A stretch of 64,000 nucleotides of DNA from Candidatus Omnitrophota bacterium (GCA_028716565.1 JAQUPL010000007.1:10819-74818), one strand, 5' to 3'; positions 3,042 to 19,157 are shown, counted from the first letter of the stretch. Numbers and translations are program-made. Notes: generated from the letters alone by a model not told the origin.

Positions 3042-3050
3042 ATAATTATT

Positions 3051-3530
3051 TCAGAAACCCAGATTCCTGTCCAAGCTCCTGTAATTTATCGCCTCGGAGA
3101 TGTGTTCTGCAGATATTGTCTCTGCTCCCGCGAGGTCGGCTACCGTCCTCGCAATCTTGAGCACCTTATCATAGCCCCTCGCGCTCAGGCCTAGCTCCAG
3201 GATCGCCAGTTTCAAAAGTTCGGCCGCTTCTTTATCTATGCGGCAGAATTGCTCGAGGTATTTCGGGGAGAGATGGGCATTACAGAATATACTCAGCCCT
3301 TTGTACCTTTCCCCCTGCATCTTCCTCGCCTTATCCACCCTTTCTTTTATATCCGCCGAACTTTCTCCCCTGCTCTTGTTGGAGAGCTCCTTATACCTCA
3401 ATGACGGGACTTCGAGATGTATATCTATCCTGTCCAATAGCGGGCCCGAGACTTTAGAAAGGTAACGTTGGATCGCCGGCGGCGCGCAGTGGCATTCCTT
3501 CTTCGGGTCGGTAAAATATCCGCACGGGCA
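3051..3530 (-). pseudogene. comM: comM (YifB/Mg-chelatase-like ATPase) C-terminal fragment, separated from its N-terminal part by the island
   Basis: CPCGYFTDPKKECHC ... LSARGYDKVLKIARTVADLAG ... ISAEHISEAINYRSL matches the ComM/YifB C-terminus and resumes exactly after the NPCP that ends the fragment at 18092..19156. Confidence 0.85.
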
Positions 3531-5074
3531 CCCGTGTCGCTTGAATCCACACACAAGCCTGAATCTTGAGCACGGCTGATGATTTTAGGCGGAATTTGAA
3601 TAGAATAATCGACGAAATGCTTATCAATTTTGATTTCAGAGAGCAGATTGCGAAGCAATTCCTTCCTGTCTGGCATATCTAGCTCATCAAACACCTCTTT
3701 CATATCCTGACAAAGCCCAATGGTCGAATCTATATCATAATAATCAATATCGAGACTAGTAGGCTTGTCCCTCAATACTCCCAGCCTTTTGGCTATACCC
3801 GCTTCTTCAACGTCAACTAATTGCTTCCTCTCAAGGAACTCTGACTTGGTTATATTGCCACTTTCATAAAGCTCAAAAATCCTTTGCCTTTTTGCCATAG
3901 CTTTGTCCAACTGCGCCTGTAAGACTCTTACTTGCTCCCTTGTAGCTTCCGCTCCTTTATCATTCGAGATTACTGTCTCTTCCAAGGATTTCTTCACACG
4001 GTTAGAATCAATCGAGAGATTCTTAAGATTTCCGGTTATCAAGCTCTCAAGGCTATCTGCCCTTATGGAGCTTCCGCTGCATTGGGCATTGCCTTTCTGT
4101 GTGTGACCTGAGCATTTATAATAAGCGTATTTTGCCCCGTTAGGTTTGGTATACAGCATTCCGTGCATCCGGACTCCGCACCTGCTGCAGTAAACTAATC
4201 CAGTCAAGAGGTACTTTGCATTCGCCTTGGGCGCTATCTTAGACTGCTGCCTAACGATATCTCGTACCTTGTCAAATAGTTCCCGTGTTATCAAAGGCTG
4301 GTGTGCTCCCGCCCCCCTTATGTATCTTTCCACAGGGTTGTGTCTCAATTCGCCCCTGTAAGTGTGGCTCCTCTTGTTATAAACCACTTCGCCGTAGTAA
4401 CAGGGATTCGTCAAAATCCTCCTGACGGAAGTCGGGGCCCACATTCCGCCTTTCCTTGTCTTAATCCCATCTTCGTTTAGCTTATGCGTGACATACAGGA
4501 TTGACCTGTGCTCAAGATAAAAACTGAAAATTTCCCTAACTATGTCGGCCTCCAAAGAATTCACCCTAAGAGACTTGTTCTCGGACAAAAAACCGTATGG
4601 GGCAATGCCGCCGTTATACTTTCCCTGCTCTGCCCTTGAACACATCACATCCTTGACTCGTTCTGCCGTGGTTTCCCTCTCGAACTGGGAAAAAGCGGCC
4701 CTCATTGTGGAAAACACCCTCCCTGCTGGGGTGGAAGTGTCTATGTTGCCTTCCAAGCAGACGAACATTACGTTCTTTCTTTCAAAATTCTCAGTTGTAT
4801 CCAGAAAGTCTTTCGTGTTCCTAAAGAGACGGTCTAACTTGGTACAAAGGATTACGTCAAGCCTACCTGCTTCGATATCATCCATCATCCTGATGAACTC
4901 TGGCCTATTGGTGTTCTTTGCGGAGATTCCAGCATCCTTATACATAGCCACAACAGACCAGTCTTCTTTCGAGGTGACATAGGCTTCCAAACGCTTAAGT
5001 TGCACATCTAGCGACTCGCCCCGCTCCCTCTGCATATCAGTCGAAACCCTGATATATAAGCCACATCTCATCAT
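3425..5074 (-). CDS. large serine recombinase (integrase)
   Basis: N-terminal resolvase domain with GLYIRVSTDMQ (Ser nucleophile), a recombinase domain and a zinc ribbon (CSRCGVRMHG ... YYKC). The C-terminal Arg-rich tail (about 35 aa) is encoded across the island/comM junction. Confidence 0.9.
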   Translation of the reverse strand: MMRCGLYIRVSTDMQRERGESLDVQLKRLEAYVTSKEDWSVVAMYKDAGISAKNTNRPEFIRMMDDIEAGRLDVILCTKLDRLFRNTKDFLDTTENFERKNVMFVCLEGNIDTSTPAGRVFSTMRAAFSQFERETTAERVKDVMCSRAEQGKYNGGIAPYGFLSENKSLRVNSLEADIVREIFSFYLEHRSILYVTHKLNEDGIKTRKGGMWAPTSVRRILTNPCYYGEVVYNKRSHTYRGELRHNPVERYIRGAGAHQPLITRELFDKVRDIVRQQSKIAPKANAKYLLTGLVYCSRCGVRMHGMLYTKPNGAKYAYYKCSGHTQKGNAQCSGSSIRADSLESLITGNLKNLSIDSNRVKKSLEETVISNDKGAEATREQVRVLQAQLDKAMAKRQRIFELYESGNITKSEFLERKQLVDVEEAGIAKRLGVLRDKPTSLDIDYYDIDSTIGLCQDMKEVFDELDMPDRKELLRNLLSEIKIDKHFVDYSIQIPPKIISRAQDSGLCVDSSDTGARADILPTRRRNATARRRRSNVTFLKSRARYWTG

Positions 5075-5088
5075 TTTCTCTTTATCCC

Positions 5089-5250
5089 TATCAGTTTCTT
5101 AATGTGGTAAGCCTGAATTTTGTTTGGCTTTTGATGCCCATTAAACCATCGGTTAACCGTGACGAAACCGACACCCAATATTTCCGCCAGTTTTTCTTGG
5201 GTTATTCTCCGCTCCAACCTATATTCTTCCAGCTTTTTTATTAAGTCCAT
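5089..5250 (-). CDS. small XRE/Xis-like HTH protein (53 aa), translationally coupled to the recombinase
   Basis: Manual translation: MDLIKKLEEYRLERRITQEKLAEILGVGFVTVNRWFNGHQKPNKIQAYHIKKLIGIKRK. Its stop TGA overlaps the recombinase ATGATG. Below the ORF-track size cutoff. Confidence 0.55.
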
Positions 5251-5402
5251 ATATACTATTATATCGTTTTATATCTACTTGTCAAGTCATTTTAAACAGG
5301 CCCAGGATTTCGCCTATTATGCTATACAAGAGCCTCTGCTTCTTCTTTTGGTTTGCCTTAAGAATAAACCGAATCAATGCTTTTTCTTGGAATTCGGGTT
5401 CA

Positions 5403-6101
5403 TTATGGTCTTTTATCGGAGCTTCCATCTTGGGCCCTTAATGACCTTGTCTTAATCTCATTTGCTAATCTTCCGAAAATATTCTTGCGAATTTGCGCAT
5501 CTTTAACCTCGAATTTTATTATCTCGATGAGATTAATTATATTCTGTCTCATATCCTTGGCTTTGGCTTCAATATCCACCCCTCCCGAAAACACTAATTT
5601 AAGCGCATCTTCTCCGGCAAGTCCAAACCTATCCCAAATCTCAAGCATCGTAAGGAGCTGCTGCTTAAAAATAACGAGGTACCGCTGCTGTGTGCCGTGA
5701 ATTGCTAGAAGATTCCTTGACAATCCGGTTACCTCTGAAATACTGGCCGGCTTTGTATCTGAACCTGCCCTATTCGACTCTTGCACTTGCCTTAATATGG
5801 CTATTGATGTGGCCGAGAGTTTTTCAAGCTCATTGTATTTTCTCCAGGCTTCCTCTATTTGTAAATCCAGCTGCATAGTCAGCATTATCATATGGTTAAT
5901 AATTTTATTATTGATTCTGAGGTCTTTTTTGATTTCATTTAAGACATCTTCTTTGGCCGCATTAACATAATTATAGACCTGGCTTTTATGGCAGCCTAAA
6001 GACCGAGCTATTTCCTCCACGCCCCTGCGTAGGATACAATACTGCCTGACTGCCTCTTTCTTTCGTTCCTGCCTAGTCAATTTATTTCCAATGTTTTCCA
6101 T
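5403..6101 (-). CDS. HTH-domain protein (sigma-70 region 4 / terminase-small-subunit-like N-terminus), function unknown
   Basis: 232 aa; N-terminal RQYCILRRGVEEIARSLGCHKSQVYNYV resembles an HTH, with a coiled-coil rest. No confident family. Confidence 0.4.
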   Translation of the reverse strand: MENIGNKLTRQERKKEAVRQYCILRRGVEEIARSLGCHKSQVYNYVNAAKEDVLNEIKKDLRINNKIINHMIMLTMQLDLQIEEAWRKYNELEKLSATSIAILRQVQESNRAGSDTKPASISEVTGLSRNLLAIHGTQQRYLVIFKQQLLTMLEIWDRFGLAGEDALKLVFSGGVDIEAKAKDMRQNIINLIEIIKFEVKDAQIRKNIFGRLANEIKTRSLRAQDGSSDKRP

Positions 6102-6176
6102 TTTTCATCTCCGCTTTAATATTGACCGCCGATATCGCCTTCTTGACACCCCTTTTTCCGCCGGAGTCCCAAGATA

Positions 6177-6212
6177 CTATCTATATATAATTAGATATAT
6201 AGTTATATATCT
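6177..6212. promoter_or_regulatory. AT-rich overlapping palindromes (AGATATATAG|TTATATATCT) upstream of the 5403..6101 gene; candidate operator
   Basis: Near-perfect 20-bp palindrome at 6193..6212, overlapped by CTATATATAATTAGATATATAG, lying in the 5' region of the minus-strand HTH gene. Confidence 0.35.
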
Positions 6213-6342
6213 CAGTCTCTAGCCTTACTCTTTATTCCTACCAGCATATCTCTATTAATAAAGCTAAGCTCCTGTATGCTGTATAGGCCATCGTTGAGAG
6301 AGTAAGAGCTCAGAGCGATAGAAATAAACAGGAGCTCAGCCA

Positions 6343-6648
6343 TTATTCGGCCTTCCTAACGAAATATTCGGTCTTACTCTTTTCACCCGTCCTTTTTATG
6401 CAAATGAATTCCCCGTCTGATATCTTGGCCATCTGTTTTGCTAAGGACCTTGAGCTTCTATCCCAGTATTGCTCAACGCCGTTTACTTCCAAATGATATC
6501 TGATAAGAATTGTCTTTCCGCCGTCAAAGTTATTAGGCACTTCTTCGGCATAAAGATACTTCACTTTCATTTCTTCCCCATCCGGCAAATCAAAATATTT
6601 TGACTTCGATGAGGCAAATCTTTTAAGTACTTCACTGCTGTTACCCAT
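6343..6648 (-). CDS. hypothetical protein (island cargo)
   Basis: 101-aa ORF in an AT-rich region, no recognisable motif. Confidence 0.35.
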   Translation of the reverse strand: MGNSSEVLKRFASSKSKYFDLPDGEEMKVKYLYAEEVPNNFDGGKTILIRYHLEVNGVEQYWDRSSRSLAKQMAKISDGEFICIKRTGEKSKTEYFVRKAE

Positions 6649-6997
6649 CTGTCACCTCTTCTTTCTTTTTCTTTACTTTTTCAATTAATTTTAAATAGGT
6701 TGCTGTAACCTGTTTTTCAATATCCTCCGCCACTTGGGAATTTATGGGATGGAAACAGTTTACTCTAAGACCGTTCTTCAAAATCTTGATTGGATAAGAA
6801 AGCCTGAAGCCTTTCCCGCTTAGGAGAGAATACAGCGCAATATCGCCGACATAGAAAGATTTATTTATGACGAAACTGACGAAGGCGAGTAAACCATTTC
6901 GGGGTTTAATTGGGATGATTTCTATTTCAGAGAGAATAATTTCCATTTTCTTGATTGACTCTTTCATTATCTTCAAATTAATAGTTGTATAGAACAA
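6641..6997 (-). CDS. hypothetical protein (island cargo; start probably the internal Met MKESIKK)
   Basis: 118-aa ORF whose listed start is TTG; an ATG lies 10 codons downstream. Confidence 0.35.
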   Translation of the reverse strand: MFYTTINLKIMKESIKKMEIILSEIEIIPIKPRNGLLAFVSFVINKSFYVGDIALYSLLSGKGFRLSYPIKILKNGLRVNCFHPINSQVAEDIEKQVTATYLKLIEKVKKKKEEVTDG

Positions 6998-7037
6998 AAA
7001 ACGACATCCCGATAACCTTGTGGTTACCAGAATGTCG
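6996..7037 (-). terminator. Rho-independent terminator-like hairpin with U-run (minus strand)
   Basis: Minus strand has an imperfect 16-bp stem (CGACATTCTGGTAACC ... GGTTATCGGGATGTCG) followed by TTTTTTGTTCT. Confidence 0.4.
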
Positions 7038-7217
7038 CCAAATTTTCCCGTGTTTAGGCGGGTTTGTAATTACTGCTTTCGCAACGACGACTAATAAATT
7101 TTCAAAGACAGTTTTAGTTTATCACATTCTGATATTATGTCAAGTAGTATTTTCATAACCCTTTGTTGTGCCTAGTGTTATATATTATAATATATTATAT
7201 TAGGTTTGTTGATAACT

Positions 7218-8324
7218 TCAGAAGCCGGAAACACCCTTTAATTTTGCCCCTGTCACATCTGCTGTTCCTGACATAAGAGGCACGGCCTGAAACTTCCATA
7301 TGCTATTAGGTTCAAGATTATTTATACTATCTAATGCTGTGCCAACGTGGTTGCCGTCTTTATCATAAAGATTGAATTCTATTTGCACGTAAGAGTATCG
7401 CTTATTTGAATTATTTTTGACCTTGCCTGCTATGTTTTTATTTCCTACTGTGTAAGTCTTTCCACCGACACTTGCTTTATATGTAACCCAATCCCAATCC
7501 AGCACGGTAAAAGAATCGGTTTTGGGCATTGCTGGAACCACGCTTTGTTTAACGCTTGGGATAGGTTGATGTTCTATCCTGTAGTAACCTATAAGACACA
7601 TTATTACAAAAATCGCTATTGCTATGCCTACCCCTCCGGCAATCCTGAAAATGCTTTTCTTGTCGAAGCCGGATACCTTATCGAGTTCTTTACCGCTTCT
7701 CATTAAGTTCCCATATGATTTTAACCCAAAGGGCCCTTTTTGTTGCGATTGACCTGCCTGATGTTTCATACTGTTTTTCCGCCTTATATCCATAATAATG
7801 CCGATAATCATCCCGATTAAAGCAAATCCCCAGAAAGGCAGGCTAAATACTGACTGGAAAACAGATTCAGTTGGGAATAAAAAATTAAATAACAAGATGC
7901 CACCTATAAACCCTAATAGGCTATAAAAAGGAAAAAGCCCCCCTGTCTTGCCACAGTGAGGACAGGTAGTCGCATCTATACTCATCATTTTCTTACAGGA
8001 AAGGCACTGGATATATACCGCTCCCTTTTGGCCGTCATCAAATACCTCTCTGATTGTTTTTATCTGTATAGGATTTTTAGAAGCCAGTATTTCTGCCGCC
8101 TCTTCAACATTCTTGGCCTCTACGGTATCGGCGAAGCTTCCTTTCCAAGTCACCCATTCGCACTCATACTTCTTTGAGCCTGTTTTAGCCCCTTGTTTAT
8201 CAAGCATTTCTCCGCAATGCTTGCACTTAATAGCATCGTCTTGTATTTCTTCGGCACAGTAAGGACATTTTTTCATTTTAGCCCCCTTTTTCGTAAAATG
8301 AAGTATCTGTATAGATTGTATCAC
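7218..8324 (-). CDS. membrane protein with two N-terminal zinc ribbons (likely start MKKCPYC at 8276)
   Basis: [13 protein letters not shown] and CLSCKK..CPHCG ribbons, then hydrophobic helices and a C-terminal extracytoplasmic domain. No family assignment. Confidence 0.55.
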
Positions 8325-8372
8325 CCACTATCGTGGGTGTCAAGGTAAGGATACTTATGGGAGAATTAAGGC

Positions 8373-8588
8373 GTGGAAAACATTAATATAAGATTCGGAA
8401 ATAGGCTGAGGCAACTACGGAAGAGGAAGAAACTGACTCAGGAAAAACTTGCCGGTGCGACTGGTCTAGAATACAAATACATCCAGAGACTGGAAGGCAA
8501 GAAACCGTCGTCTCCTACCTTAAATACGTTAGAAAAACTCGCCAAAGCCTTTAACATCAGCGTATCTAAACTATTAAACTTCAAATAA
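8373..8588 (+). CDS. XRE-family HTH transcriptional regulator
   Basis: 71 aa; LRKRKKLTQEKLAGATGLEYKYIQRLEGKKPSSPTLNTLEKLAKAFNISVSKL is a classic HTH_XRE. Divergent from the zinc-ribbon membrane protein gene. Confidence 0.75.
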   Translation: MENINIRFGNRLRQLRKRKKLTQEKLAGATGLEYKYIQRLEGKKPSSPTLNTLEKLAKAFNISVSKLLNFK

Positions 8589-8590
8589 GA

Positions 8591-9514
8591 TTAGAGAACG
8601 CTTGCTTTTATTCTGTTGACTAATTTAATATGCAAATCTTCAGCATCTTTCCATAAAATATGGTTATATTGCCGAGTGTCAAAATGTAACTCATCCTTTT
8701 CGCTATCCTTACAAATCCAAATTACTTTAATTCCTAATCCTAATGCAAAACCTGCTTCAAAATAAACATTCTGTCGTTGCCCAGTAAAATCGGCTATTAG
8801 CAATCGTGATGTTTTAATTTCAGCAATAATTTCATCGCAAATTTTCTCATTATGCTCTATTAAATCAATCCTTACGGCACTCAAGCCACAATCTTCGCAA
8901 GCCTTTGCTATCGCCGCTTTGAAAATATCTTTCAAAGCGGCATCTTTAAAACTCATTGCTATAAAAACCTTTCTACTATGAATATTTGGTTCTTTAATAT
9001 GCTCGTATTCTTGCCAACCCCTGACTGTCAATCGTATTATGGAATATTGTCTACCAGCAGTAGTAAAATCTACGAAACCATTGTCTTTAAGATAGATAGC
9101 CAGGTTTTTTAATTCCTCTGGGTTTTTACAGAAAAATTTCGTGAATTCAGTAGAATACTCTACTGTGAATTCTTGTCCAATATAGTCTGAACGCCGTGCA
9201 AAATAAGATATAAGCATATCAAGTTTATCTTTAACTGCCAACCTCTTGTAATAAGCCACTTTCTCTGGAATTTGCATTATATCAGAAGACAGTAATCGCA
9301 AGATAATTCCTTGTTCGGCATTCTCTCTTATATATCCTGAAAATAGAATTTTATCTTCCTTAGATATGCTATCAATTATCTTATCGGATAATGCCTCATA
9401 TGAAACAATATAACTCACGCATAAAGGACAAGTAATCCTTTTGGCTTGACGCTCTGGCATATCGGTTATTTCTTTGGGTTGGCTACCACATATTATACAG
9501 ACTTCTTCTTGCAT
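8591..9514 (-). CDS. zinc-ribbon protein with C-terminal nucleoside 2-deoxyribosyltransferase-like (SLOG superfamily) domain
   Basis: N-terminal CIICG ... CPLC. The C-terminus KVFIAMSF ... LLIADFTGQRQNVYFEAGFALGLGIKVIWI matches the D-x-[ST]-G ... E-x-G-x-A ... GK-x-V signature of the Nuc_deoxyrib_tr / DNPH1-like fold. Confidence 0.5.
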   Translation of the reverse strand: MQEEVCIICGSQPKEITDMPERQAKRITCPLCVSYIVSYEALSDKIIDSISKEDKILFSGYIRENAEQGIILRLLSSDIMQIPEKVAYYKRLAVKDKLDMLISYFARRSDYIGQEFTVEYSTEFTKFFCKNPEELKNLAIYLKDNGFVDFTTAGRQYSIIRLTVRGWQEYEHIKEPNIHSRKVFIAMSFKDAALKDIFKAAIAKACEDCGLSAVRIDLIEHNEKICDEIIAEIKTSRLLIADFTGQRQNVYFEAGFALGLGIKVIWICKDSEKDELHFDTRQYNHILWKDAEDLHIKLVNRIKASVL

Positions 9515-9619
9515 ATAGCCCCCTACTATATAATAAGTTGTCCCGCCTTTACAGGTGTAGGCTCATATTCAAAGAATACTTCTAACGGCTTGTCTTTTGG
9601 ATTTATTTTCTTCATATTG

Positions 9620-10701: not shown

Positions 10702-10766
10702 CTGTCCCGACGCTTGGCTAACTATTTAATATCGGCTTCAATACAGAAATGGCGAGTCCTTTAGTT

Positions 10767-11754: not shown

Positions 11755-11785
11755 AATACTCTCCTTTTTAAAAACTCTCGGTCGT

Positions 11786-12673: not shown

Positions 12674-12859
12674 ATTTCCACAACGTCTTTTTCCTTCGCT
12701 TACTTAGACTTTTTAATCTTTTGAACTATTGCAGTATTTTTCTGGCTTTTGGCTCTTGCTACTGACATAAACTTTCCTGTTATAGCACTTCTACCGATTT
12801 TAAATGTCTTGCCCATTCATTACCTCCTTTTGTAATGTTGCCTAATTCATATTCCTGGA

Positions 12860-13228
12860 TTAGTAAGTCTGTAGTTTGATAGTAATCAAAATAGCAATAA
12901 TAAAAACTGTCATTGATGCAACAAATAAAACAATAAATGTCCAATAAAGTCGTTCAGCCCATATTCCCCATCTGCTATTCCTAAAGTCGTAATTTTTAAT
13001 TTTCCCGTCTATCACAAGCTCATAATGCTTGGAGGAGCAGATGCTACTAACAAGATGAACACCTATTGTCAAGATAAACCCTAAAAGTGTTATTAAATAC
13101 CAACTTTGAATTCCATATTTATCACATATGATAAAAATTGATGCGAGAACGGTCAAGGAGAGGGTTATTACCCTATTGCTTATTTCTGAATTTATTTTCT
13201 TATATTCTTCAATTAACTGATTACTCAA
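12860..13228 (-). CDS. small membrane protein (3 TM), unknown
   Basis: Hydrophobic helices; TTG start overlaps the stop of a 51-aa basic ORF upstream. Confidence 0.4.
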   Translation of the reverse strand: MSNQLIEEYKKINSEISNRVITLSLTVLASIFIICDKYGIQSWYLITLLGFILTIGVHLVSSICSSKHYELVIDGKIKNYDFRNSRWGIWAERLYWTFIVLFVASMTVFIIAILITIKLQTY

Positions 13229-13380
13229 CGTGCCCTCCTCGGGGGTCTGGGTGCTGTAAATTTACCTCCCCTGCTGCTACGCCCAGACATTTTCCCACGA
13301 CATTGCCCAGTTTGTTTATCAATGTAGTATAAATAACCTTTTCGACGTTTAATCTCTTTCTTCATTATCTTTTTCTTCAT
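13225..13380 (-). CDS. possible small basic protein (51 aa; below ORF-track cutoff)
   Basis: Manual translation MKKKIMKKEIKRRKGYLYYIDKQTGQCRGKMSGRSSRGGKFTAPRPPRRAR; its stop overlaps the TTG start of 12860..13228. Confidence 0.25.
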   Translation of the reverse strand: MKKKIMKKEIKRRKGYLYYIDKQTGQCRGKMSGRSSRGGKFTAPRPPRRAR

Positions 13381-13626
13381 ACTATCTCTCCCTCAATGCC
13401 CACTATGCATCCTTATTCAATTCCTTTTTATGTTCTATAATATTATCGAGTTTGTTACTAATGTCGTTGAGGTATTTATTTGTAGAGTCGACATTGTTAA
13501 CGAGTTTTTCTATATTAAGCCCGATTAGTATTAGGGCTACAATTGCAATCACTCCTATAGCAATCATATTCACCTCATTTCTTCAATACAGTTTTAATGC
13601 CCAAGCAACTATTAATTGTTTTTTAT

Positions 13627-14061
13627 TCATTTGTCTACTTCTTGCCCACAATTAGAGCAAGCATCCTGAAATACTTTATTTTTCTCATTACAAGAAGGAC
13701 AAGTCCAATATCCATCCTTAGAAGACACCTTTAGAATTTCATTTTTCTTCAAATTCTCATTAGGTATCATATTAGCTGGAGGTTCTCGTTTATTTATCTT
13801 TTTATATTCCTTATACCAAATTATTCCTATCGCTATTGCGAGGATAACTTCGAGAGTATCTGTAAAATCACGAGATATGTCAGGGATGGAGTTAAGAAAA
13901 CTAAACAATTTTTTGAATAGCACAGCCAATACTATTACGGTTAAAAATTTTATTAAATACATTTTGGTTTCTTTAAGTTTCCTCCAGTTACAATGTTTTC
14001 CATAAAGAAATATCCCCATAAAAAATAATACAGCTGATGGGACGCTTCCAAAGTAAATCAT
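13627..14061 (-). CDS. small membrane protein with C-terminal zinc ribbon
   Basis: Two or three TM helices, then CPSCNEKNKVFQDACSNCG. Confidence 0.45.
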   Translation of the reverse strand: MIYFGSVPSAVLFFMGIFLYGKHCNWRKLKETKMYLIKFLTVIVLAVLFKKLFSFLNSIPDISRDFTDTLEVILAIAIGIIWYKEYKKINKREPPANMIPNENLKKNEILKVSSKDGYWTCPSCNEKNKVFQDACSNCGQEVDK

Positions 14062-14447
14062 TTATTGTCCTCCAGGGTCATCTTTTTACGATAATTATTC
14101 AACCTATGTCCAATTACTGCACTCATAATATAAATAGCGGAGACTAGTGATAAAATTCCCACTAATCCTCCTTTTACTGAATTCGGCTCACCGTCCTCAT
14201 TAGTTCCTAATGTCCAAGACTCGGGAATAAAAAAGAACGCTCTATCCAATCCAATATATAAGATTAACAACAATGAAATACCCGCTCCAATAATAATCGC
14301 AAAAGTGATTCTTCCTCGTCCATAACCACACTCGTCATAATCTAACCGCTCGGGCTTGAATATCAAATTCCAAACAAATATAAGAGACGACAGATAGAGA
14401 AAAATATAACACACGGTTATAGCGATATTTACAACAAGTTCCATCAT
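14058..14447 (-). CDS. small membrane protein (3 TM), unknown
   Basis: Hydrophobic; start/stop overlap with neighbours. Confidence 0.45.
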   Translation of the reverse strand: MMELVVNIAITVCYIFLYLSSLIFVWNLIFKPERLDYDECGYGRGRITFAIIIGAGISLLLILYIGLDRAFFFIPESWTLGTNEDGEPNSVKGGLVGILSLVSAIYIMSAVIGHRLNNYRKKMTLEDNK

Positions 14448-14481
14448 CCCTCCCTAAGAAGGTTGTTAAGTTAATTGAGAA

Positions 14482-14694
14482 TTAGTTTTTCTTTTCTGGA
14501 CGAAGTATGGAATTCAGTTTAACAGCAACCACGAGTCCAATCCAGCCAACGATTGCACACATCCATTGCTTTAGGAAAACTCCCCCGCCTCCCAATAATC
14601 CTGTCCCGAGCAAGTAGAGGGAAACAAAAGCAAGACCGCTAATACATATCATTAGATGTAACTCTAGGAGCTCTTTTTTCGTTGGAAGTCTCAT
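14482..14694 (-). CDS. small membrane protein (2 TM), unknown
   Basis: Hydrophobic 70-aa ORF; overlaps the next gene by 4 bp. Confidence 0.4.
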   Translation of the reverse strand: MRLPTKKELLELHLMICISGLAFVSLYLLGTGLLGGGGVFLKQWMCAIVGWIGLVVAVKLNSILRPEKKN

Positions 14695-14999
14695 CTCTTC
14701 ACCGATTTAATAAAATAAACAATAAAAATGATGCCCCCAATTAAATCTGCAATCCTCCACGCTTCTTTTCCGAAATAAAACTTCATAAATGGATTAAACA
14801 ATAAGGCAACAATCCCTAATACCCAAGCCCAGCCAAATTCCTTTTTTTGGTAAGTCAAATATGCCCCATAAGCTCCTACTCCACACACAAAGAACCTCAA
14901 TAATTGATAATACGAATACGGTAAATCTCCCAATGCTATAAATAACACTATGCCTGCAATTAAAAATATAGGATTTCTTTTCATATAAGCAAACCTCAC
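14691..14999 (-). CDS. small membrane protein (3 TM), unknown
   Basis: Hydrophobic 102-aa ORF. Confidence 0.4.
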   Translation of the reverse strand: MRFAYMKRNPIFLIAGIVLFIALGDLPYSYYQLLRFFVCGVGAYGAYLTYQKKEFGWAWVLGIVALLFNPFMKFYFGKEAWRIADLIGGIIFIVYFIKSVKR

Positions 15000-15006
15000 T
15001 TTTTAA

Positions 15007-15420
15007 CTAAATTTTAAATTGGTTTTGCCATTCTCTTGAAATATTCTTTGTTCTTGCCGAAACTATAAACATAGTTATTATGAGTAGGGGTATAATCAAT
15101 AATTCCCAATCGTTTACTCTGCCTAAAACACCAAGAACGAGGAAAATAATTAAACTAAAGCGTTTATAACCGCAAACCTTAGAACGCTGGTAGCTAACAT
15201 TAAAAATTGAAAAATATAAAGTGAATTGTATTATTATTAACACCCACACAAACCAAAGTGGAGCAGTAGCACGAATAGCATTTAACCATAACGTTACACC
15301 AATATAACCTATAAGAATACTAAGAATGCTAACAACAAACATTCTTCTCTCAATTTTCAAACCTTTTGTTTTAAGAAATTCGCTTAGATTCATTTCCCCT
15401 TCAATGTCCTTATCGCCCAA
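15007..15420 (-). CDS. small membrane protein (4 TM), unknown
   Basis: Hydrophobic 137-aa ORF. Confidence 0.4.
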   Translation of the reverse strand: MGDKDIEGEMNLSEFLKTKGLKIERRMFVVSILSILIGYIGVTLWLNAIRATAPLWFVWVLIIIQFTLYFSIFNVSYQRSKVCGYKRFSLIIFLVLGVLGRVNDWELLIIPLLIITMFIVSARTKNISREWQNQFKI

Positions 15421-15593
15421 ATGACGAAACGAAATACGAGGTAAATAGGATAACCAAAAAAGAACAACATATAGCCTGCATTCGAAGTATTAGCGTTGCT
15501 TCCTGGTATGACCTCAGCCGTCATAATAAACGCTGCTAATATAATCCCTATTAATATTAATCCTTCTCTTGCTACGATTTTCTTAATGTTCAT
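15390..15593 (-). CDS. small membrane protein (2 TM), unknown
   Basis: 67-aa hydrophobic ORF. Confidence 0.35.
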   Translation of the reverse strand: MNIKKIVAREGLILIGIILAAFIMTAEVIPGSNANTSNAGYMLFFFGYPIYLVFRFVIWAIRTLKGK

Positions 15594-15633
15594 TCCTTGC
15601 TCCTGTAGTCATTTACCGAGAATTAAATCAGTA

Positions 15634-15828
15634 TCATCTGAGATATAATATAATAACTGCTATCAACAATATAAATACAAGACAGCCCATACAACCACCA
15701 TCTCCGCTACGATGCAAGCCATTTTCGAGGTCATCTACTTTGCTCTCAAGGCCGTCCACCCTGCTTTCTACGTCATCTATTCTATCTCGTGGCTCATAAT
15801 AATCAGAATCTTCGGTTTCGTCTTTCAT
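15634..15828 (-). CDS. small tail-anchored protein (acidic coiled-coil N-terminus, C-terminal TM)
   Basis: DDVESRVDGLESKVDDLENG followed by CLVFILLIAVIILYL; first gene of the co-directional array. Confidence 0.35.
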   Translation of the reverse strand: MKDETEDSDYYEPRDRIDDVESRVDGLESKVDDLENGLHRSGDGGCMGCLVFILLIAVIILYLR

Positions 15829-15883
15829 ATTATTTCTCCGATTTCTTTTCTTCGTATATTATCCTGCCATCTTCTTAATTAAA

Positions 15884-15913
15884 AAGGTAACCCCCTATTT
15901 AGAGGGTTACCTT
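15884..15913 (-). terminator. perfect 10-bp inverted repeat (AAGGTAACCC / GGGTTACCTT) with U-run on the minus strand; terminator or insulator upstream of the small-membrane-protein operon
   Basis: 10-bp stem, 10-nt loop; the minus-strand sequence continues TTTTAATT. Confidence 0.4.
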
Positions 15914-16301
15914 ACGAATTTAACCTGATTTTGACCTCATAACTGCCCCTTTGCGGTTGGAGTCTCATTATCCTACTAAGAGAGCCTCAATTCAACCCTT
16001 TTTTGGCTGTTCTGGGGCATTTGTAAGCACTCTTGGGTCTTTTTAGGGATAGACAATTTAACTTCGTTTTTTGCTTAATTTTAGGGTATAATTTGTGCTT
16101 GGATACCTTGTTGAACTTCGCATTCTGTATAAATTACGAAACAAAATTCATTTGATTATTTATTAGTTCATACGTATGATGAATAGGGATGACTCTAATG
16201 ACAATTTTTTATTATTAAAAGATGGTAAATATGTTTGATTTCTCAATTGATTAAGAGTATGATAAATTCCAGATTAGTGTTTGTTAAGGGAATATACTTA
16301 A

Positions 16302-17519
16302 ATGGTAAATAAAACAATATTATTATTGCTATTTATTAGCCTTATCTGTGGTTGTAGCTATGCTAGTAATGCTATCTCAGAAAATCCATCCCCCAATCCT
16401 GCAAATAAGAATATTGAGAGCAACAATACGCCTTCGGATATCTCTAACCTTATAGAAGAAAAAATAGATGCGAAAATAGGCAAATTAAAGGATGCATATT
16501 TAGAGAATGGCATTTTATCTAATAAACAATATTTAGATAGCTTAGGTAGAATAGAAAATAATGTTGATACGGATTTAGGCCGAATTTGGAAGCTTTTAAG
16601 TGCGGTCGGAATAGTAATCGCTATCCTGGGAATATTTGGATTTTCTAACTTAGCAGAATTATATAGGTCAATACATAGAGCTAAAGGCGACCTTGACCAA
16701 ACAGGTAAATTGTATAAAACTATGGAAAATAAGCTACGTCAACAATCTCAGGAGTTAGAAGAAAGATACGGATACCTCACCGACCCATCATTAACAACAA
16801 AAATAGCGCCTACATTATTAGATGAAAATAAATTTCTTAATTACGACCACCAGTTATATTTTATGCCCGTGTTTTTACCTATAACAAAAAATTTTAACTT
16901 ATATAAAAATTCTTTACTTAAAATTGGTATTTTCTTCTTATGGCAAGGTAATTATGCGAGAGCTATTTTACGCTTTGAAGAAATAGAAAAATTAACAGAG
17001 ATAGAACACAAAAAATTTATATTAGGTAAAAATATTTTGGGGGATAAAACGGACGTATTTTTAAATGCTTATGGAAATGCTTGTTCATATTATGCTACAG
17101 AAAAATGCACTAAAGGCTCATCTGAATGGAATGAATATATAGTTAAAGCTGAGGATTATTACAAAAAATCAATAAAAATTAATAAATTTTTTCAAAAACC
17201 ATACTATAATCTTGGCTTATTATATGCTGTGGATAAATACAACTTGGATAAAAATAAGGAGAATTGTCAAAAAGCACTTGAATATTATACCCTTGGACTC
17301 AAATATACAAAAGAACCAAACGATGTTTATGCTATTAAATGGAATATGGCTTGCAGTAAGGTTAAATTAGAAGCTCCGATTGAAGAAGTTATGGAACTGC
17401 TTGAATCTATCCCTGTGAACAACCACTTTTGGCCAAAAATACAAGAAGATTCCGTCTTTAATCCAATAAAAAGCACGCCCGAATGGCGTGCTCTTATAAC
17501 TAGAAAAACTTCTAATTAA
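16302..17519 (+). CDS. lipoprotein with helical/TPR-like repeats (island cargo)
   Basis: Signal peptide with LICGCS lipobox; low-complexity N-terminus; Y/N-rich helical repeats. Confidence 0.55.
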   Translation: MVNKTILLLLFISLICGCSYASNAISENPSPNPANKNIESNNTPSDISNLIEEKIDAKIGKLKDAYLENGILSNKQYLDSLGRIENNVDTDLGRIWKLLSAVGIVIAILGIFGFSNLAELYRSIHRAKGDLDQTGKLYKTMENKLRQQSQELEERYGYLTDPSLTTKIAPTLLDENKFLNYDHQLYFMPVFLPITKNFNLYKNSLLKIGIFFLWQGNYARAILRFEEIEKLTEIEHKKFILGKNILGDKTDVFLNAYGNACSYYATEKCTKGSSEWNEYIVKAEDYYKKSIKINKFFQKPYYNLGLLYAVDKYNLDKNKENCQKALEYYTLGLKYTKEPNDVYAIKWNMACSKVKLEAPIEEVMELLESIPVNNHFWPKIQEDSVFNPIKSTPEWRALITRKTSN

Positions 17520-17859
17520 CCCCGTTATACGCTTTTTGTATTCTCGCTATACATTTTAATCACCTTCCTGTACTTAAAGTATATCTCAAAAATTAACTAA
17601 AATCAATGCCTCTATTGTTTTTTAAGGAAGTGTTTTCTCTATAGACAATTATAGCCTCGGTCAATACCAAGGCTAATTTTTAAGATTTTTAGGATATAAA
17701 TATAGTTTTTTGGCAAAGCTTGCTTTCCCATAAGTGCTTTCTATTTTACTAACCTTAAGATACTCTGTCAAGCGAAATATCATACGAAACTCCTCTTCCC
17801 AATTTTACAATCCCCTTTCTGTCTGCACCTAAAACAGCTCAAACCGACTGTCGTGACAA

Positions 17860-18053
17860 CTAAGACTTTATGCCCAAATACTTTAGTCTGTTTCTATACC
17901 TTTTGACTGGCCTTGTCCTATCTTTCTCCCAATTAACAATAGTCATTTCATCTACTCCGAGTCTCTTTGCAAGGTCTACCTGCCTTAACCCCTTCTCGAG
18001 CCTACACTTGCGTATCTTTTCTCCGGATGTCTTGTCTGAATGACGAGAAACCC
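17860..18053 (-). pseudogene. XRE-type HTH reading frame without a canonical start codon (possible remnant or non-canonical start) at the island right end
   Basis: Minus-strand frame encodes IRKCRLEKGLRQVDLAKRLGVDEMTIVNWEKDRTRPV (HTH_XRE-like). The only ATG is within the HTH (MTIVNW). Confidence 0.3.
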
Positions 18054-18091
18054 TGAACCAAAGCTTGATAGGCTGTGTGTGGAATGAGTGG

Positions 18092-19156
18092 TCACGGGCA
18101 GGGGTTCATCGCGGCGACGAGCATGAATTTGGCCGGGTAACTGAAATTATACGCGGCCCTCGAAACGGTGATAGTCCCGCCTTCAAGCGGCTGGCGCAAA
18201 GCCTCCAAAGCATCGCGATGGAATTCCGGGAGTTCATCCAAAAATAGCACGCCGTTATGCGCGAGGCTTATCTCCCCGGGCTTTAAAACCTTGCCTCCCC
18301 CGACAAGGCCGGCATATGAGACCGTATGGTGCGGCATGCGGAACGGGCGCCGCGAGACCAGGAAGTTCCTGCTGTCGAGCAGCCCCGAGACGCTGTGGAT
18401 CTTTGTCGTCTCGAGCATCTCCCCGAAGGATAGCCCTGGCAATATAGTTACCAGCCGCTGGGCAAGCATCGTCTTGCCGGAGCCGGGCGGGCCGATCATA
18501 AGGACGTTGTGGCCGCCGGCAGCCGCTACCTCGAGGCCGCGCTTTACGTGCCATTGCCCTTTTACGTCGCTGAAATCGATATCAGAACCGCCGGACGACG
18601 GCTTCGGCACCCCGGCAAGATCGACTTTCAGCGGTTCGATCTTCGCGTTGCCCTTCAGGAAATTCACCACTTCGCCGAGGTCTCTCGCCGGAAAGACCGA
18701 GATCCCGCTGACGATGGCCGCCTCCCTGGCGTTCTCCGACGGCAGGATAAAATCATTCCCCCCGTTCTCCGAAATACATATCGCGATAGGCAGGGCGCCG
18801 TTTATCGGCCTCAGCCTGCCATCAAGCGATAACTCGCCGCAAAATACTTTTCCGTCCACATGGCCCTGCTCCAGGTCCCCGGCGGAGACGAGCAAGCCCA
18901 ACGCTATGGCCAGGTCAAAAGAAGCCCCTTCTTTCCGCAGATCCGCCGGCGCCAGGTTTATCGTTATCTTTTTCGGATGCAATTTAAAACCGGAATTTTT
19001 TATCGCCGAGATGACCCTGTCCCTGCTTTCCCTGACCGCGGTATCCGGGAGGCCGACTATCGTAAAACCCGGCAGGCCTCCACTGGTATCCACCTCAACA
19101 TCCACTTTTTTCGCTTCTATCCCCAACACTGTCCTGCTCTCTATTTTCGCAAGCAT
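18092..19156 (-). pseudogene. comM: comM N-terminal fragment (Lon-like N domain plus AAA+ Walker A GPPGSGKT), truncated after AAMNPCP by the island
   Basis: [48 protein letters not shown] ... [14 protein letters not shown] ... [11 protein letters not shown] then stop. The continuation (CGYFTD ...) is at 3051..3530. Confidence 0.85.
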
Positions 19157-19157
19157 T

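What the first reader, a model, noticed from the sequence alone, without database searches (positions are those of the whole stretch)
3523..18100. About 14.6 kb AT-rich integrative island splits comM at its conserved NPCP|CG motif
The N-terminal comM fragment (18092..19156) ends ...AAMNPCP* and the C-terminal fragment (3051..3530) resumes ...CPCGYFTD. Intact ComM/YifB carries MNPCPCG, so a single insertion explains both fragments. The junctions share CACGGGCA (3523..3530 and 18093..18100). Inside them lie imperfect inverted repeats CCACACACAAGCC and GGCTGTGTGTGG. A large serine recombinase gene sits at the left end. The interior (about 5100..17900) is visibly far more AT-rich than the flanks. 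comM is a known hotspot for genomic islands (for example AbaR-type islands in Acinetobacter). Here the integrase is a serine, not tyrosine, recombinase and the cargo is entirely uncharacterised. Disruption should also inactivate ComM-dependent natural transformation.
Basis: partly seen in the sequence, partly recalled or inferred. Interest (0 to 1): 0.75.

Follow-up and report, generated by a model that had tools for sequence, protein, structure and literature searches.

The report
Integrase gene split by its own insertion
A 14.6-kb mobile island has inserted into the competence gene comM of an Omnitrophota bacterium using a large serine recombinase (a common pairing), but the recombination site lies inside the recombinase gene itself, so insertion cuts off the enzyme's DNA-binding tail and only excision restores it.

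Summary
comM is split at MNPCP|CG by a 14,570-bp, 37% GC island (flanks 52-53%). A MAG 88-92% identical in DNA has the intact 510-aa gene, with the alignment breaking exactly at the shared core. The integrase is a canonical large serine recombinase (LSR). The "8-bp repeat" is a 2-bp crossover dinucleotide (CA on the + strand) plus 6 bp of half-site similarity. LSR insertion into comM is already known: Mg-chelatase/comM genes are reported as the target of 12.4% of site-specific LSRs.

In the reconstructed circle it continues in frame into the right end, giving a 594-aa LSR with a C-terminal Cro/C1-type HTH. Integration leaves that HTH orphaned and without a start codon. The same split appears in at least 18 independent metagenomic junctions in both orientations, with polarity following the central dinucleotide. 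The unsplit gene occurs on a related circular 11.2-kb contig and in three cultured phages (CP51, Harrison, Paisley). Orphan tails evolve under purifying selection. The role of the tail is unproven. My best guess is an integration-state switch of recombinase directionality or regulation.

The parts
3051..3530 (-). comM 3' fragment (ComM residues about 353-510, Mg_chelatase_C domain)
   Evidence: Translation gives CPCGYFTD...DRNLGF*. Collinear with intact comM of L010 and L008.
3501..3559 (.). attL: B' half-site (to 3528), crossover dinucleotide CA (3529-3530), P half-site (3531-3559, ending in the distal repeat CCACACACAAGCC)
   Evidence: The crossover is assigned from the symmetry here and pinned by a mismatch next to CA in a second element.
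3425..5074 (-). Large serine recombinase gene, integrated-state isoform (549 aa). Residues 1 to about 514 are island-encoded. The last 35 or so residues are read from comM in a +1 frame.
   Evidence: Pfam Resolvase 1.6e-39, Recombinase 3e-25, Zn_ribbon_recom 4.9e-15. Aligns to SPbeta integrase 9dxh over residues 9-483. Identical to P0001, an NCBI Omnitrophica MAG protein.
5071..5250 (-). Small XRE-type HTH gene whose stop overlaps the LSR start (ATGA). It is a paralogue of the LSR tail and a candidate regulator or directionality factor.
   Evidence: HTH_3 8.1e-10. 34% identical to the tail. 67-76% identical copies lie upstream of the LSR in L003, L005 and L007.
5258..5285 (-). Perfect sigma-70 consensus promoter (TTGACA-16-TATAAT) upstream of the small-HTH/LSR operon
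   Evidence: 12 of 12 match. A consensus match only; function not shown.
5403..17519 (.). Variable cargo of about 23 ORFs, mostly small membrane proteins. Includes an XRE HTH (8373-8588 +), a TIR-like effector (8591-9514 -), a HEPN protein (9620-10369 -), a nucleotidyltransferase (10366-10701 -), a SpoVG-like protein (6641-6997 -), DUF6804 (14691-14999 -) and a 405-aa lipoprotein-like ORF (16302-17519 +).
   Evidence: Pfam, PHROGs, PADLOC. None of the cargo is shared with related elements. No capsid, relaxase, T4SS or replication hits.
15884..15913 (-). Strong intrinsic-terminator-like hairpin (13-bp stem) upstream of the minus-strand cargo array
   Evidence: A pattern match only.
17860..18098 (-). 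Orphaned 3' part of the LSR gene: linker, beta strand and Cro/C1-type HTH (78 codons plus the TAG stop). It is in frame with the LSR only across the reconstituted attP. In the integrated state it has a stop 3 codons upstream (18106-18108) and no ATG, GTG or TTG before the HTH.
   Evidence: HTH_3 1.9e-07, above the Pfam cut-off. PDB profile hits to P22 C2 and 434 repressors. Homologous tails are fused to the LSR in P0003, P0005, P0033, P0034 and P0059.
18071..18128 (.). attR: P' half-site (18071-18098, starting with the distal repeat GGCTGTGTGTGG), crossover dinucleotide CA (18099-18100), B half-site (18101-18128)
18092..19156 (-). comM 5' fragment (ComM residues 1-354, ChlI plus AAA+ domains), terminated by a TGA created at the junction
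   Evidence: Identical to P0151, annotated 'YifB family Mg chelatase-like AAA ATPase, partial'.

Best explanation
The region is a 14.57-kb integrative island in a Candidatus Omnitrophota genome. It inserted into comM by conservative site-specific recombination, catalysed by its own large serine recombinase.

Shown:
- The crossover is at the 2-bp dinucleotide TG (comM sense strand), which forms the first two bases of the first Cys codon in MNPCPCG.
- attP is a symmetric site of about 60 bp (29 + 2 + 29), and attB lies inside comM.
- Precise excision would restore comM without a scar.
- attP sits inside the recombinase ORF, in a linker predicted to be disordered, between the complete LSR core (residues 1 to about 497) and a C-terminal module made of one beta strand plus a Cro/C1-type HTH.
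- The free circular element therefore encodes a 594-aa LSR-HTH protein. The integrated element encodes a 549-aa LSR whose tail is replaced by out-of-frame comM sequence. The HTH coding segment is stranded 14.5 kb away at the other end, without a start codon.
- This split is a conserved property of a large LSR clade, and insertion orientation follows the central dinucleotide (TG or CA).

Inferred:
- The two isoforms differ functionally. The full-length form is the integration-state enzyme. Loss of the tail on integration changes recombinase directionality and/or its own regulation.
- One route would be exposure of the DBD2/coiled-coil surface where directionality factors bind. Another would be removal of an HTH that binds operator or accessory DNA.
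- The small paralogous HTH protein encoded just upstream is the best candidate trans-acting partner.
- The cargo (a TIR-like effector, a HEPN/NTase pair and membrane proteins) is accessory and probably defence- or addiction-related.
- comM disruption probably lowers transformation-mediated curing of the element.
For: Integration:
- Empty site in L010, L008 and L009, with the break exactly at the core.
- The joined flanks give an intact ComM.
- GC step from 0.37 to 0.52-0.53.
- LSR domains and PDB homology.

Crossover dinucleotide:
- Both distal repeats lie 16 nt from CA.
- In contig Ga0265297_10002534 (L091 plus L005), attL reads GGG-CA and attR reads GGA-CA, so exchange is confined to CA.

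Split gene:
- The reconstructed attP joins the LSR and the HTH in frame, both in the window and in the 17.1-kb element of Ga0265297_10002534.
- Single-ORF LSR-HTH proteins exist at 65%, 59% and 37% identity: P0003, P0005 and P0033/34.
- P0005 lies on an 11,246-bp contig with a 55-bp terminal overlap, which indicates a circle, and with no comM.
- Orphan tails abut comM fragments at residue 354 in 13 orientation-B loci and 4 orientation-A loci, plus L121. All are open from the junction to the HTH.
- LSR-side junctions with comM occur in at least 20 further genomes across many phyla.
- About 45 of the 120 best LSR homologues end in the antisense-comM peptide ...RGSW/LRRPA*.
- Orientation tracks the dinucleotide. 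The window and L134/136/138 carry TG on the LSR strand. L001, L002, L005 and L141 carry CA.

Selection on the tail: pN 0.14-0.35 against pS 0.65-0.74, omega about 0.06-0.29 among orphan tails.

Structure: the AF2 model is confident up to about residue 496. Residues 499-522 have pLDDT below 50, and this is the attP-encoded linker. A strand follows at 526-533, and the HTH at 540-589 has pLDDT 85-92.

Cultured phages: the CP51 integrase is 655 aa with the same tail. Its 99%-identical proviruses break in the linker. The Harrison integrase is 695 aa with the tail and an upstream HTH gene.

Plausibility of a directionality role:
- RDFs bind DBD2 and the coiled-coil hinge, and SPbeta Int F532 near the C-terminus matters for directionality (PMC11722253).
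- C-terminal extensions have been proposed to block the RDF site (PMC12286644).
- C-terminal Int-RDF fusions reprogram direction (PMC5737554, title and abstract as listed; I did not open the paper).
Against: - No experiment or read-level data show that this particular island excises.
- Its means of cell-to-cell transfer is unknown. No capsid, relaxase, T4SS or replication gene was detected.
- The functional difference between the two isoforms is entirely inferred.
- Synonymous sites are saturated, so omega values are approximate.
- Intact LSR-HTH genes also occur inside two Myxococcota chromosomes (L027, L059). More distant members (L019, L020, L022) have no comM-like core in the linker. A fused gene therefore does not always mean an excised element.
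- About 50 of the 80 tail loci are not next to comM. I read these as using other target sites, but did not prove it.
Confidence: 0.8

Rival explanations
1. The element is an ordinary LSR island, and the in-frame continuation into the HTH has no function. attP merely overlaps the 3' end of int next to a separate regulator gene.
For: attP sites commonly lie close to int genes. The linker is predicted to be disordered. Integrated-state LSRs retain every canonical domain.
Against: - The fusion is kept in relatives from 65% down to about 26% identity and in different target-site classes.
- No member has a stop codon or a conserved start between the LSR and the HTH.
- The linker/strand motif SFHxQP..L.FRISRYPxxTLG is conserved at the protein level, and the tails show pN much lower than pS.
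Confidence: 0.15
2. The tail HTH is a cis-tethered directionality factor, a natural Int-RDF fusion. The full-length protein would then be the excisive or bidirectional enzyme rather than the integrative one.
For: Engineered C-terminal Int-RDF fusions work as excisionases (PMC5737554, title and abstract as listed, paper not opened; PMC12286644). The tail is paralogous to the small upstream HTH protein, which occupies a position typical of an Xis or RDF.
Against: The full-length protein can only be made after excision, when the required reaction is attP x attB. An excisive enzyme in that state would block reintegration. The tail is a standard Cro/C1 DNA-binding fold.
Confidence: 0.1
3. The island is a decayed prophage or satellite remnant that is now fixed in place. 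comM is permanently inactivated.
For: No structural, replication or transfer genes were detected. The element occurs on a single contig in the protein database.
Against: - The LSR ORF, both att half-sites, the 8-bp core and the orphan tail are all intact and in register.
- MAGs 88-92% identical in DNA lack the island, so acquisition is recent.
- A related element was assembled as a free circle.
Confidence: 0.15
4. The junctions are an assembly or binning chimera that joins an AT-rich mobile element to an Omnitrophota contig.
For: The sequence comes from a metagenome-assembled genome. There is a sharp GC step.
Against: - Both junctions fall at the same 2-bp position of one codon, and together they reconstitute an intact gene.
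- The same junction architecture recurs in dozens of independent assemblies from different studies.
Confidence: 0.02

Closest known systems
comM / Mg-chelatase-targeting large serine recombinases (Durrant et al. 2022, PMC10083194; Wolbachia sr1WO prophages, PMC9203015)
   Same: An LSR inserts an element into the conserved Mg-chelatase-like comM/yifB gene, leaving gene halves on both flanks. The target class accounts for 12.4% of predicted site-specific LSRs. sr1WO prophages carry the recombinase at one end and single-domain HTH_XRE genes at the other.
   Different: In what I could read, those papers do not describe attP lying inside the LSR ORF or an LSR-HTH fusion restored on excision. I did not test whether sr1WO follows the same rule. 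The window element is a small non-phage island in Omnitrophota.
Myxococcus phage Mx8 IntP/IntX (attP inside the int coding sequence; PMC6070905, citing Tojo 1996 and Magrini 1999)
   Same: attP lies within the integrase gene. Integration creates a recombinant gene with a new 3' end. The prophage-encoded integrase remains active but has altered properties.
   Different: Mx8 Int is a tyrosine recombinase and the lost segment is not an HTH domain. Here the enzyme is a serine recombinase, and a complete, separately folding DNA-binding domain is removed.
Integration-dependent immunity of mycobacteriophages such as BPs and Brujita, and of M. abscessus prophages (PMC8092301, PMC9934374, PMC4557955)
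   Same: attP lies inside an ORF encoding an HTH regulator. The virus-encoded and prophage-encoded products therefore differ at the C-terminus, and the 3' remnant is stranded at the other att site. Integration state is read out through protein structure.
   Different: All described systems use tyrosine integrases and split a separate repressor gene. There the truncated, attL-encoded repressor is the active product. Here the split ORF is the integrase itself, and the HTH is the part that is lost and silenced.
SSV1-type archaeal integrases (int gene partitioned on integration; cited from my own knowledge)
   Same: The integrase gene contains attP and is divided into two fragments in the provirus.
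   Different: These are archaeal tyrosine recombinases, and the split inactivates the int gene. Here the catalytic and DNA-binding core stays intact.
Engineered integrase-RDF C-terminal fusions (PMC5737554, title and abstract only, as listed; PMC12286644; SPbeta Int-RDF structures 9dxd, PMC11722253)
   Same: A small domain attached through a flexible linker to the C-terminus of an LSR, near DBD2 and the coiled-coil hinge, reprograms directionality.
   Different: These fusions are synthetic and the fused partner is a known RDF. In the natural case the fused domain is a Cro/C1 HTH, is present only in the excised state, and has an unknown effect.
AbaR/AbGRI islands in Acinetobacter comM (PMC11472951)
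   Same: The same target gene. comM-inserted elements often carry defence genes. The same suggested benefit applies: reduced curing of the element by transformation.
   Different: AbaR elements are Tn7-like transposons (TniABC and related genes), not site-specific recombinase elements, and they use a different insertion point and mechanism.

Membership tests
Large serine recombinase (LSR / serine integrase) | N-terminal resolvase catalytic domain with the conserved Ser nucleophile motif | tested here: met
   PF00239 1.6e-39 over residues 6-153. Y7-I8-R9-V10-S11 are invariant across 23 relatives.
Large serine recombinase (LSR / serine integrase) | Recombinase domain (DBD1) plus zinc-ribbon domain (DBD2) with an inserted coiled coil | tested here: met
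   PF07508 3e-25 and PF13408 4.9e-15. The AF2 model has long helices at 357-404 and 410-435 between the zinc-ribbon strands. Aligns to SPbeta integrase over residues 9-483.
Large serine recombinase (LSR / serine integrase) | Short att sites with a non-palindromic 2-bp crossover dinucleotide that sets polarity; attP an imperfect inverted repeat of about 50-60 bp; no long direct repeats | tested here: met
   Symmetric attP of 29 + 2 + 29 bp. The crossover is confined to CA by a flanking mismatch in a second element. Elements with TG and with CA insert in opposite orientations at the same comM codon.
Large serine recombinase (LSR / serine integrase) | A cognate recombination directionality factor controls excision | not testable with these tools
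   The candidate is the 59-aa HTH protein at 5071-5250, which is conserved upstream of the LSR. No multimer modelling or assay was available.
Temperate phage / prophage | Capsid, terminase, portal, tail and lysis genes | tested here: not met
   PHROGs and Pfam scans of the larger ORFs found none. ORFs shorter than about 100 aa were not all scanned. Some relatives of the LSR module are true phages (CP51, Harrison).
Integrative conjugative or mobilisable element | Relaxase, coupling protein, T4SS or oriT | tested here: not met
   No such Pfam hits in the window island. A distant relative, L002, does carry TraG/TrwB and a Replic_Relax relaxase.
AbaR / Tn7-like comM islands | TnsABC/TniABC-type transposition genes and a target-site duplication | tested here: not met
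   No transposase or ATPase module was found. The only weak hit is an N-terminal HTH to phrog_151. The junctions are conservative, with no duplication beyond the 2-bp core.
Integration-dependent switch, BPs type | attP inside an ORF, so that free and integrated forms encode different C-termini | tested here: met
Integration-dependent switch, BPs type | Tyrosine integrase, with a separate repressor gene that becomes active when truncated | tested here: not met
   The integrase is a serine recombinase. The split ORF is the integrase itself, and the HTH part is left without a start codon.
Anti-phage defence island cargo | Recognised defence-system proteins | tested here: inconclusive
   TIR-like effector, PADLOC PDLC00733 2.4e-11. 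HEPN, Aga_HEPN 3e-05. NTase, PDC-S09 2.9e-08. Hypoth_Ymh (HEPN) 1.4e-25 and Polbeta NTase 4.2e-11. No complete named system was identified.

The most novel reading that the evidence does not exclude
A large and widespread clade of serine integrases is built as a self-splitting gene. It includes much of the comM-targeting class and the integrases of cultured Clostridium and Paenibacillus phages. attP lies in the linker between the recombinase core and a C-terminal strand-plus-HTH module. The excised element therefore makes a full-length, integration-state enzyme, and the integrated element makes a tail-less enzyme.

The tail would gate directionality, by occupying the DBD2/coiled-coil hinge or by binding accessory DNA, and/or would autoregulate the operon. 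The element would then reset its own recombinase each time it changes state.

One corollary follows. LSR sequences mined from integrated prophages would be prophage isoforms carrying host-derived junk tails, not the native integrating enzymes.
Probability: 0.35. Interest if true: 0.8.

Novelty: new variant of a known kind. Interest (0 to 1): 0.62.

Why it matters
The island itself is one more example of a known pairing, an LSR inserting into comM. The gene architecture is the interesting part.

- **A built-in state sensor.** A serine integrase whose own att site divides it from a DNA-binding tail would sense integration state through its own structure. The closest known natural cases involve tyrosine recombinases (Mx8 IntP/IntX, BPs-type immunity). 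For serine integrases, state-dependent control of directionality has so far been achieved by engineering.
- **A route to an open question.** If the tail affects directionality or expression, it bears on how serine-integrase elements avoid re-excision or re-integration at the wrong time.
- **Practical consequences for genome engineering.** Catalogues of LSRs taken from integrated elements would list truncated enzymes with spurious C-termini for this clade.
- **Testability.** The same module occurs in the cultured phages CP51 (C. perfringens) and Harrison and Paisley (P. larvae), so the idea can be tested directly.
- **The target gene.** The repeated use of one comM codon across many phyla, in both orientations, fits the view that mobile elements benefit from disabling ComM.

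Tried and rejected
- **Prophage.** PHROGs and Pfam found no structural genes.
- **ICE or IME.** No relaxase or T4SS was found in the window.
- **AbaR or Tn7-like element.** No transposition module was found.
- **RNA genes.** Rfam returned no hits in 1-24000, and the tRNA scan found only a host tRNA-Leu at 2395-2481. The island is therefore not tRNA-associated.
- **Shared backbone genes.** Apart from the small HTH, the LSR and the tail, nothing is shared with related elements.
- **Far junctions.** L003, L005 and L007 did not reach the far junction within 10 kb. A metagenome scan with the tail profile solved this.
- **Independent translation of the orphan HTH.** It is not in the comM frame. The junction GTG opens a third frame. 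There is no ATG, GTG or TTG before helix 1 (and my own reading of the sequence).
- **Operator-like repeats for the HTH.** The repeat finder gave only short matches compatible with chance, for example AAGCCTGAATCTTG at 3555 and 5109.
- **Tail docking.** I could not get the AF2 coordinates, so whether the tail strand docks on DBD2 remains untested.
- **Literature.** I found no description of an LSR with attP inside its ORF or with a C-terminal HTH removed on integration. That absence covers only the open-access library searched.
- **The 2019 'binary counter' paper (PMC6511857).** It looked like a synthetic precedent, but it does not place an att site inside the integrase ORF.

Full report
**1. 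The observation**

- On the minus strand, an ORF at 18092..19156 encodes ComM residues 1-354 and ends ...AAMNPCP*.
- The minus-strand frame at about 3530..3051 resumes ...CPCGYFTD and runs to the normal ComM C-terminus.
- CACGGGCA occurs at 3523..3530 and at 18093..18100.
- Joining the flanks across one copy gives an uninterrupted 510-aa protein with the ChlI, Mg_chelatase and Mg_chelatase_C domains.
- The island is 37.4% GC (cargo 36.4%, integrase gene 45.7%). The left flank is 52% and the right flank 53.4%, and the rest of the window is uniform.
- The ORF at the left end has the three Pfam domains of a large serine recombinase (LSR). It aligns with the SPbeta integrase structure over residues 9-483.

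**2. The empty site**

A search with the reconstructed ComM found intact 510-aa homologues at 90-93% identity in other Omnitrophota assemblies. Their contigs keep the window's gene order: FecR, a 342/365-aa ORF, SpoVG, UPF0102, comM, tRNA-editing protein, phosphorylase.

At the DNA level, L010 (GCA_028706795.1) aligns to window 24000..18093 and then directly to 3531..2347, at 88-92% identity. The two alignments overlap by 9 nt in the query (L010 7053-7061), which covers the 8-bp core. The segment 3531..18092 is an insertion.

**3. Anatomy of the att sites**

On the plus strand the left junction reads CCGCACGGG-CA-CCCGTGTCGCTTGAAT-CCACACACAAGCC. The right junction reads GGCTGTGTGTGG-AATGAGTGGTCACGGG-CA-GGGGTTCAT.

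They are the outer parts of a 25-nt terminal inverted repeat. The reconstituted attP is therefore a symmetric site of about 60 bp. Its centre is CACGGG-TG-CCCGTG on the comM-sense strand.

The 8-bp "direct repeat" is the 2-bp crossover plus 6 bp that the attP and attB half-sites happen to share.

A second complete element pins the crossover. In contig Ga0265297_10002534 (L091 plus L005, about 17.1 kb), one junction reads GGG-CA and the other GGA-CA, and the sequences diverge immediately after CA. Exchange can only have occurred within CA.

This is the standard signature of a serine integrase. The crossover falls on the TG of the first Cys codon of MNPCPCG.

**4.

The LSR ORF (3425..5074) does not stop inside the island. 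It runs across attL and ends 105 nt into comM, in a +1 frame, which gives an Arg-rich tail of about 35 residues.

When the circular form is reconstructed, the ORF instead continues in frame into the right end of the island (18098 down to 17863). The result is a 594-aa protein. Its last 55 or so residues match HTH_3 above the Pfam cut-off and resemble the P22 C2 and 434 repressor DNA-binding domains.

In the integrated state this 78-codon segment has a stop three codons upstream and no ATG, GTG or TTG before the first HTH helix. It is also not in the comM frame. It is therefore an untranslatable orphan.

**5. The split is a family trait, not an accident**

*Unsplit genes exist.* A protein search with the 594-aa reconstruction found single-ORF LSR-HTH proteins at 65%, 59% and 37% identity (P0003, P0005, P0033/34), plus P0059. 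P0005 sits on an 11,246-bp contig (L001) with element genes on both sides and no comM. The contig has a 55-bp terminal overlap, the mark of a circular assembly. Its linker carries GGCGACACGGG-CA-AGCGTGACC flanked by inverted repeats.

*Split genes recur.*
- Most close homologues are 514-520 aa and end in ...TGRGSW/LRRPA*. That peptide is encoded by the antisense strand of comM's AAMNP codons. About 45 of the best 120 hits have this tail.
- In genome contigs, LSR relatives at 26-61% identity abut a comM fragment broken at residue 354. They come from Omnitrophota, Methylomirabilota, Uhrbacteria, Desulfatiglandales, Desulfobacterales, Solidesulfovibrio, Verrucomicrobiota, Nitrospirota and Clostridia.
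- A metagenome scan with a profile of the tail found orphan tails directly against a comM fragment in 18 loci. Thirteen are against the antisense C-terminal fragment, four against the sense N-terminal fragment as in the window, and one more is L121. In the 17 loci analysed (L121 was not), the frame is open from the junction to the HTH.
- Four further loci carry the fused gene (L134, L136, L138, L141).

*Orientation follows the central dinucleotide.* Elements whose attP reads CA on the LSR strand sit with the LSR converging on the comM N-terminal fragment. Elements reading TG, including the window, sit the other way round. This is what serine-integrase chemistry predicts.

**6. The tail is a protein under selection**
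- The segment after the crossover, SFHxQP(I/L)KLxFR(I/V)SRYPxKTLG followed by the HTH, is conserved among distant members.
- Among 14 orphan tails, non-synonymous differences are 0.14-0.35 per site. Synonymous sites are saturated at 0.65-0.74. Omega is roughly 0.06-0.29.
- Sequence that cannot be translated in the integrated state is therefore being kept as coding sequence. This implies regular passage through the excised state.
- The AlphaFold2 model of the 594-aa protein has a confident core to about residue 496. Residues 499-522 have pLDDT below 50, and this is exactly the attP-encoded stretch. A beta strand follows at 526-533, and the HTH at 540-589 has pLDDT 85-92. The dual-coding DNA thus maps to a flexible linker.
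- DSSP a strand and the tail has no other strand. It is probably paired with a strand of the core.

**7. The conserved module and the cargo**

Only three things are shared between the window island and its relatives: the 59-aa HTH gene overlapping the LSR start (67-76% identical in L003, L005 and L007), the LSR, and the tail. The small HTH is 34% identical to the tail. A perfect TTGACA-16-TATAAT promoter match precedes it.

The cargo is unique to this island:
- a TIR-like protein with an N-terminal zinc ribbon (PADLOC TIR effector 2.4e-11; phrog_16139 1.9e-49), next to a divergent XRE gene;
- an overlapping HEPN (Hypoth_Ymh) and nucleotidyltransferase pair;
- a SpoVG-like protein and a DUF6804 protein;
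- many small membrane proteins.

No capsid, replication, relaxase or T4SS genes were detected. How the island moves between cells is unknown.

**8. Reach beyond comM**
- In the phage collection, the integrase of Clostridium perfringens phage vB_CpeS-CP51 is a 655-aa LSR with the same C-terminal HTH.
- IMG/VR proviruses 99% identical to it diverge from the phage sequence inside the linker. The phage reads ...GCATGTCCAG|CATGAATAAA and the provirus reads ...GCATGTCCAG|TATCTAA. The provirus LSR stops there. The host gene at that junction is a GIDA-family FAD protein, not comM.
- The integrases of Paenibacillus larvae phages Harrison and Paisley (695 aa in Harrison, the only one measured) carry the tail. 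In Harrison, an overlapping HTH gene precedes the integrase.
- About 50 of the 80 metagenomic tail loci are orphan tails next to other, unrelated genes. I take these to be other target sites.
- The architecture is therefore older and wider than the comM-targeting group.

**9. How it most likely works**

*Shown.* The LSR-HTH encoded by the circle carries its own attP in the linker. Recombination with comM attB at the TG/CA dinucleotide inserts the element, truncates ComM after residue 354, and separates the LSR core from its tail.

*Established for the family.* Integration by an LSR needs only the enzyme and the two sites. Excision needs a directionality factor that binds DBD2 and the coiled-coil hinge (PMC11722253, PMC12286644).

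*Inferred.* The tail makes the two states biochemically different. Two facts make a directionality role plausible.
- The extreme C-terminus of SPbeta integrase (F532) contacts the RDF and affects directionality (PMC11722253).
- C-terminal extensions in SCCmec recombinases have been proposed to block the RDF site (PMC12286644).

A regulatory role is equally possible. The Cro/C1 fold could bind an operator or accessory site only in the free state. The small paralogous HTH protein is the obvious candidate partner.

I put about 0.9 on the split-gene architecture being real and conserved. I put about 0.35-0.4 on the specific idea that it gates directionality or autoregulation.

**10. Comparison with what is known**
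- LSR insertion into comM/Mg-chelatase genes is well documented. It accounts for 12.4% of predicted site-specific LSRs (PMC10083194) and is used by Wolbachia sr1WO prophages (PMC9203015). On that point the finding is not new.
- comM is also hit by other mobile elements that often carry defence genes. The suggested benefit is reduced curing of the element by transformation (PMC11472951).
- attP inside an integrase gene, with a new 3' end after integration, is known for the tyrosine integrase of phage Mx8 (PMC6070905).
- attP inside an HTH repressor gene underlies integration-dependent immunity, always with tyrosine integrases (PMC8092301, PMC9934374).
- I found no report of the serine-integrase version, but my searches covered only an open-access library.

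I therefore class the island as a new member of a known kind, and the self-splitting LSR-HTH gene as a new variant of a known kind.

**11. Open points**
- Intact LSR-HTH genes lie inside two Myxococcota chromosomes, among helicase and nuclease genes (L027, L059). More distant fused members lack a comM-like core in the linker.
- No data show that this particular island excises.
- Omega estimates rest on saturated synonymous sites.
- Loss of transformation is an inference.

Noticed in passing
L171 3010-4977 (Clostridium phage vB_CpeS-CP51, NC_021325.1); L173, L174 and L177: The integrase of this cultured phage is a 655-aa LSR with the same C-terminal HTH. Proviruses 99% identical to it break inside the linker and stop there. 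The host gene at the junction is a GIDA-family FAD protein rather than comM.
   Followed up: partly
L207 286-2713 (Paenibacillus phage Harrison, NC_028746.1): The integrase HARRISON_44 (695 aa) carries the tail-like HTH at its C-terminus. An overlapping HTH gene (HARRISON_45) precedes it, the same module as in the window. Phage Paisley has the same match.
   Followed up: partly
L027 9827-12010 and L059 (Myxococcota chromosomes CAXXHC010000001.1 and OY782497.1): Intact LSR-HTH genes lie inside multi-megabase chromosomes. In L027 the gene is flanked by RecD2-like helicase, Lar and PD-(D/E)XK nuclease genes on one side, and by helicase and PLD-nuclease genes on the other. The split-on-integration rule does not explain these.
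   Followed up: partly
L108, L112/L124, L120, L123/L125, L154 and about 45 further loci of L091-L170: Orphan tail segments (NYKNSxPLVITLRLSxYP... plus HTH) lie 150-300 nt downstream of unrelated intact genes, with no comM or LSR nearby. They are probably far ends of elements that use other attB sites.
   Followed up: partly
L002 (ENA ERZ27297473 k141_2197923, 94-kb contig), LSR at 10001-11917: A plasmid- or ICE-like region with TraG/TrwB, a Replic_Relax relaxase, an E2-CBASS/JAB/ThiF trio, Eco57I/XhoI restriction-modification genes and a radical SAM gene. It carries a 638-aa LSR-HTH whose linker holds a near-perfect palindromic attP, TTTGTAGCTTACGACCGCACGGT-CA-ACCATGCGGCTACAAA.
   Followed up: partly
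P0093 (646 aa; NCBI, 1.95-Mb contig): An LSR ORF that reads in frame into the ComM C-terminal domains (Pfam Mg_chelatase and Mg_chelatase_C). Integration has produced an LSR-ComM chimeric protein.
   Followed up: no
window 5258-5285 (-): A 12-of-12 match to the sigma-70 consensus (TTGACA, 16 nt, TATAAT) lies immediately upstream of the small-HTH/LSR operon, in a phylum whose promoters are poorly characterised.
   Followed up: no
window 3523-3536 (-): The attL core CACGGGTGCCCGTG followed by CGGATATTTT scores as an intrinsic-terminator-like hairpin inside the integrated-state LSR ORF.
   Followed up: no
window 6641-6997 (-) and 19510-19773 (-): The island carries a divergent SpoVG-like ORF (118 aa, PF04026 1.6e-08). 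The host's own spoVG lies two genes upstream of comM.
   Followed up: no
window 2395-2481 (+): tRNA-Leu(CAG) lies between the phosphorylase and tRNA-editing genes. It is the only tRNA in 1-24000 and is not associated with the island.
   Followed up: yes
L008 7585-8166 and L009 2418-2999: A 193-aa ORF with no Pfam hit lies between comM and the tRNA-editing gene in two relatives. It is absent from the window and from L010, a small indel polymorphism next to the attB gene.
   Followed up: no
L028 4797-5333 and 6891-7025: Two separate matches to the ComM C-terminal fragment lie downstream of an orientation-A LSR in an Omnitrophota MAG. This may be a partial duplication or a second, decayed insertion.
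   Followed up: no
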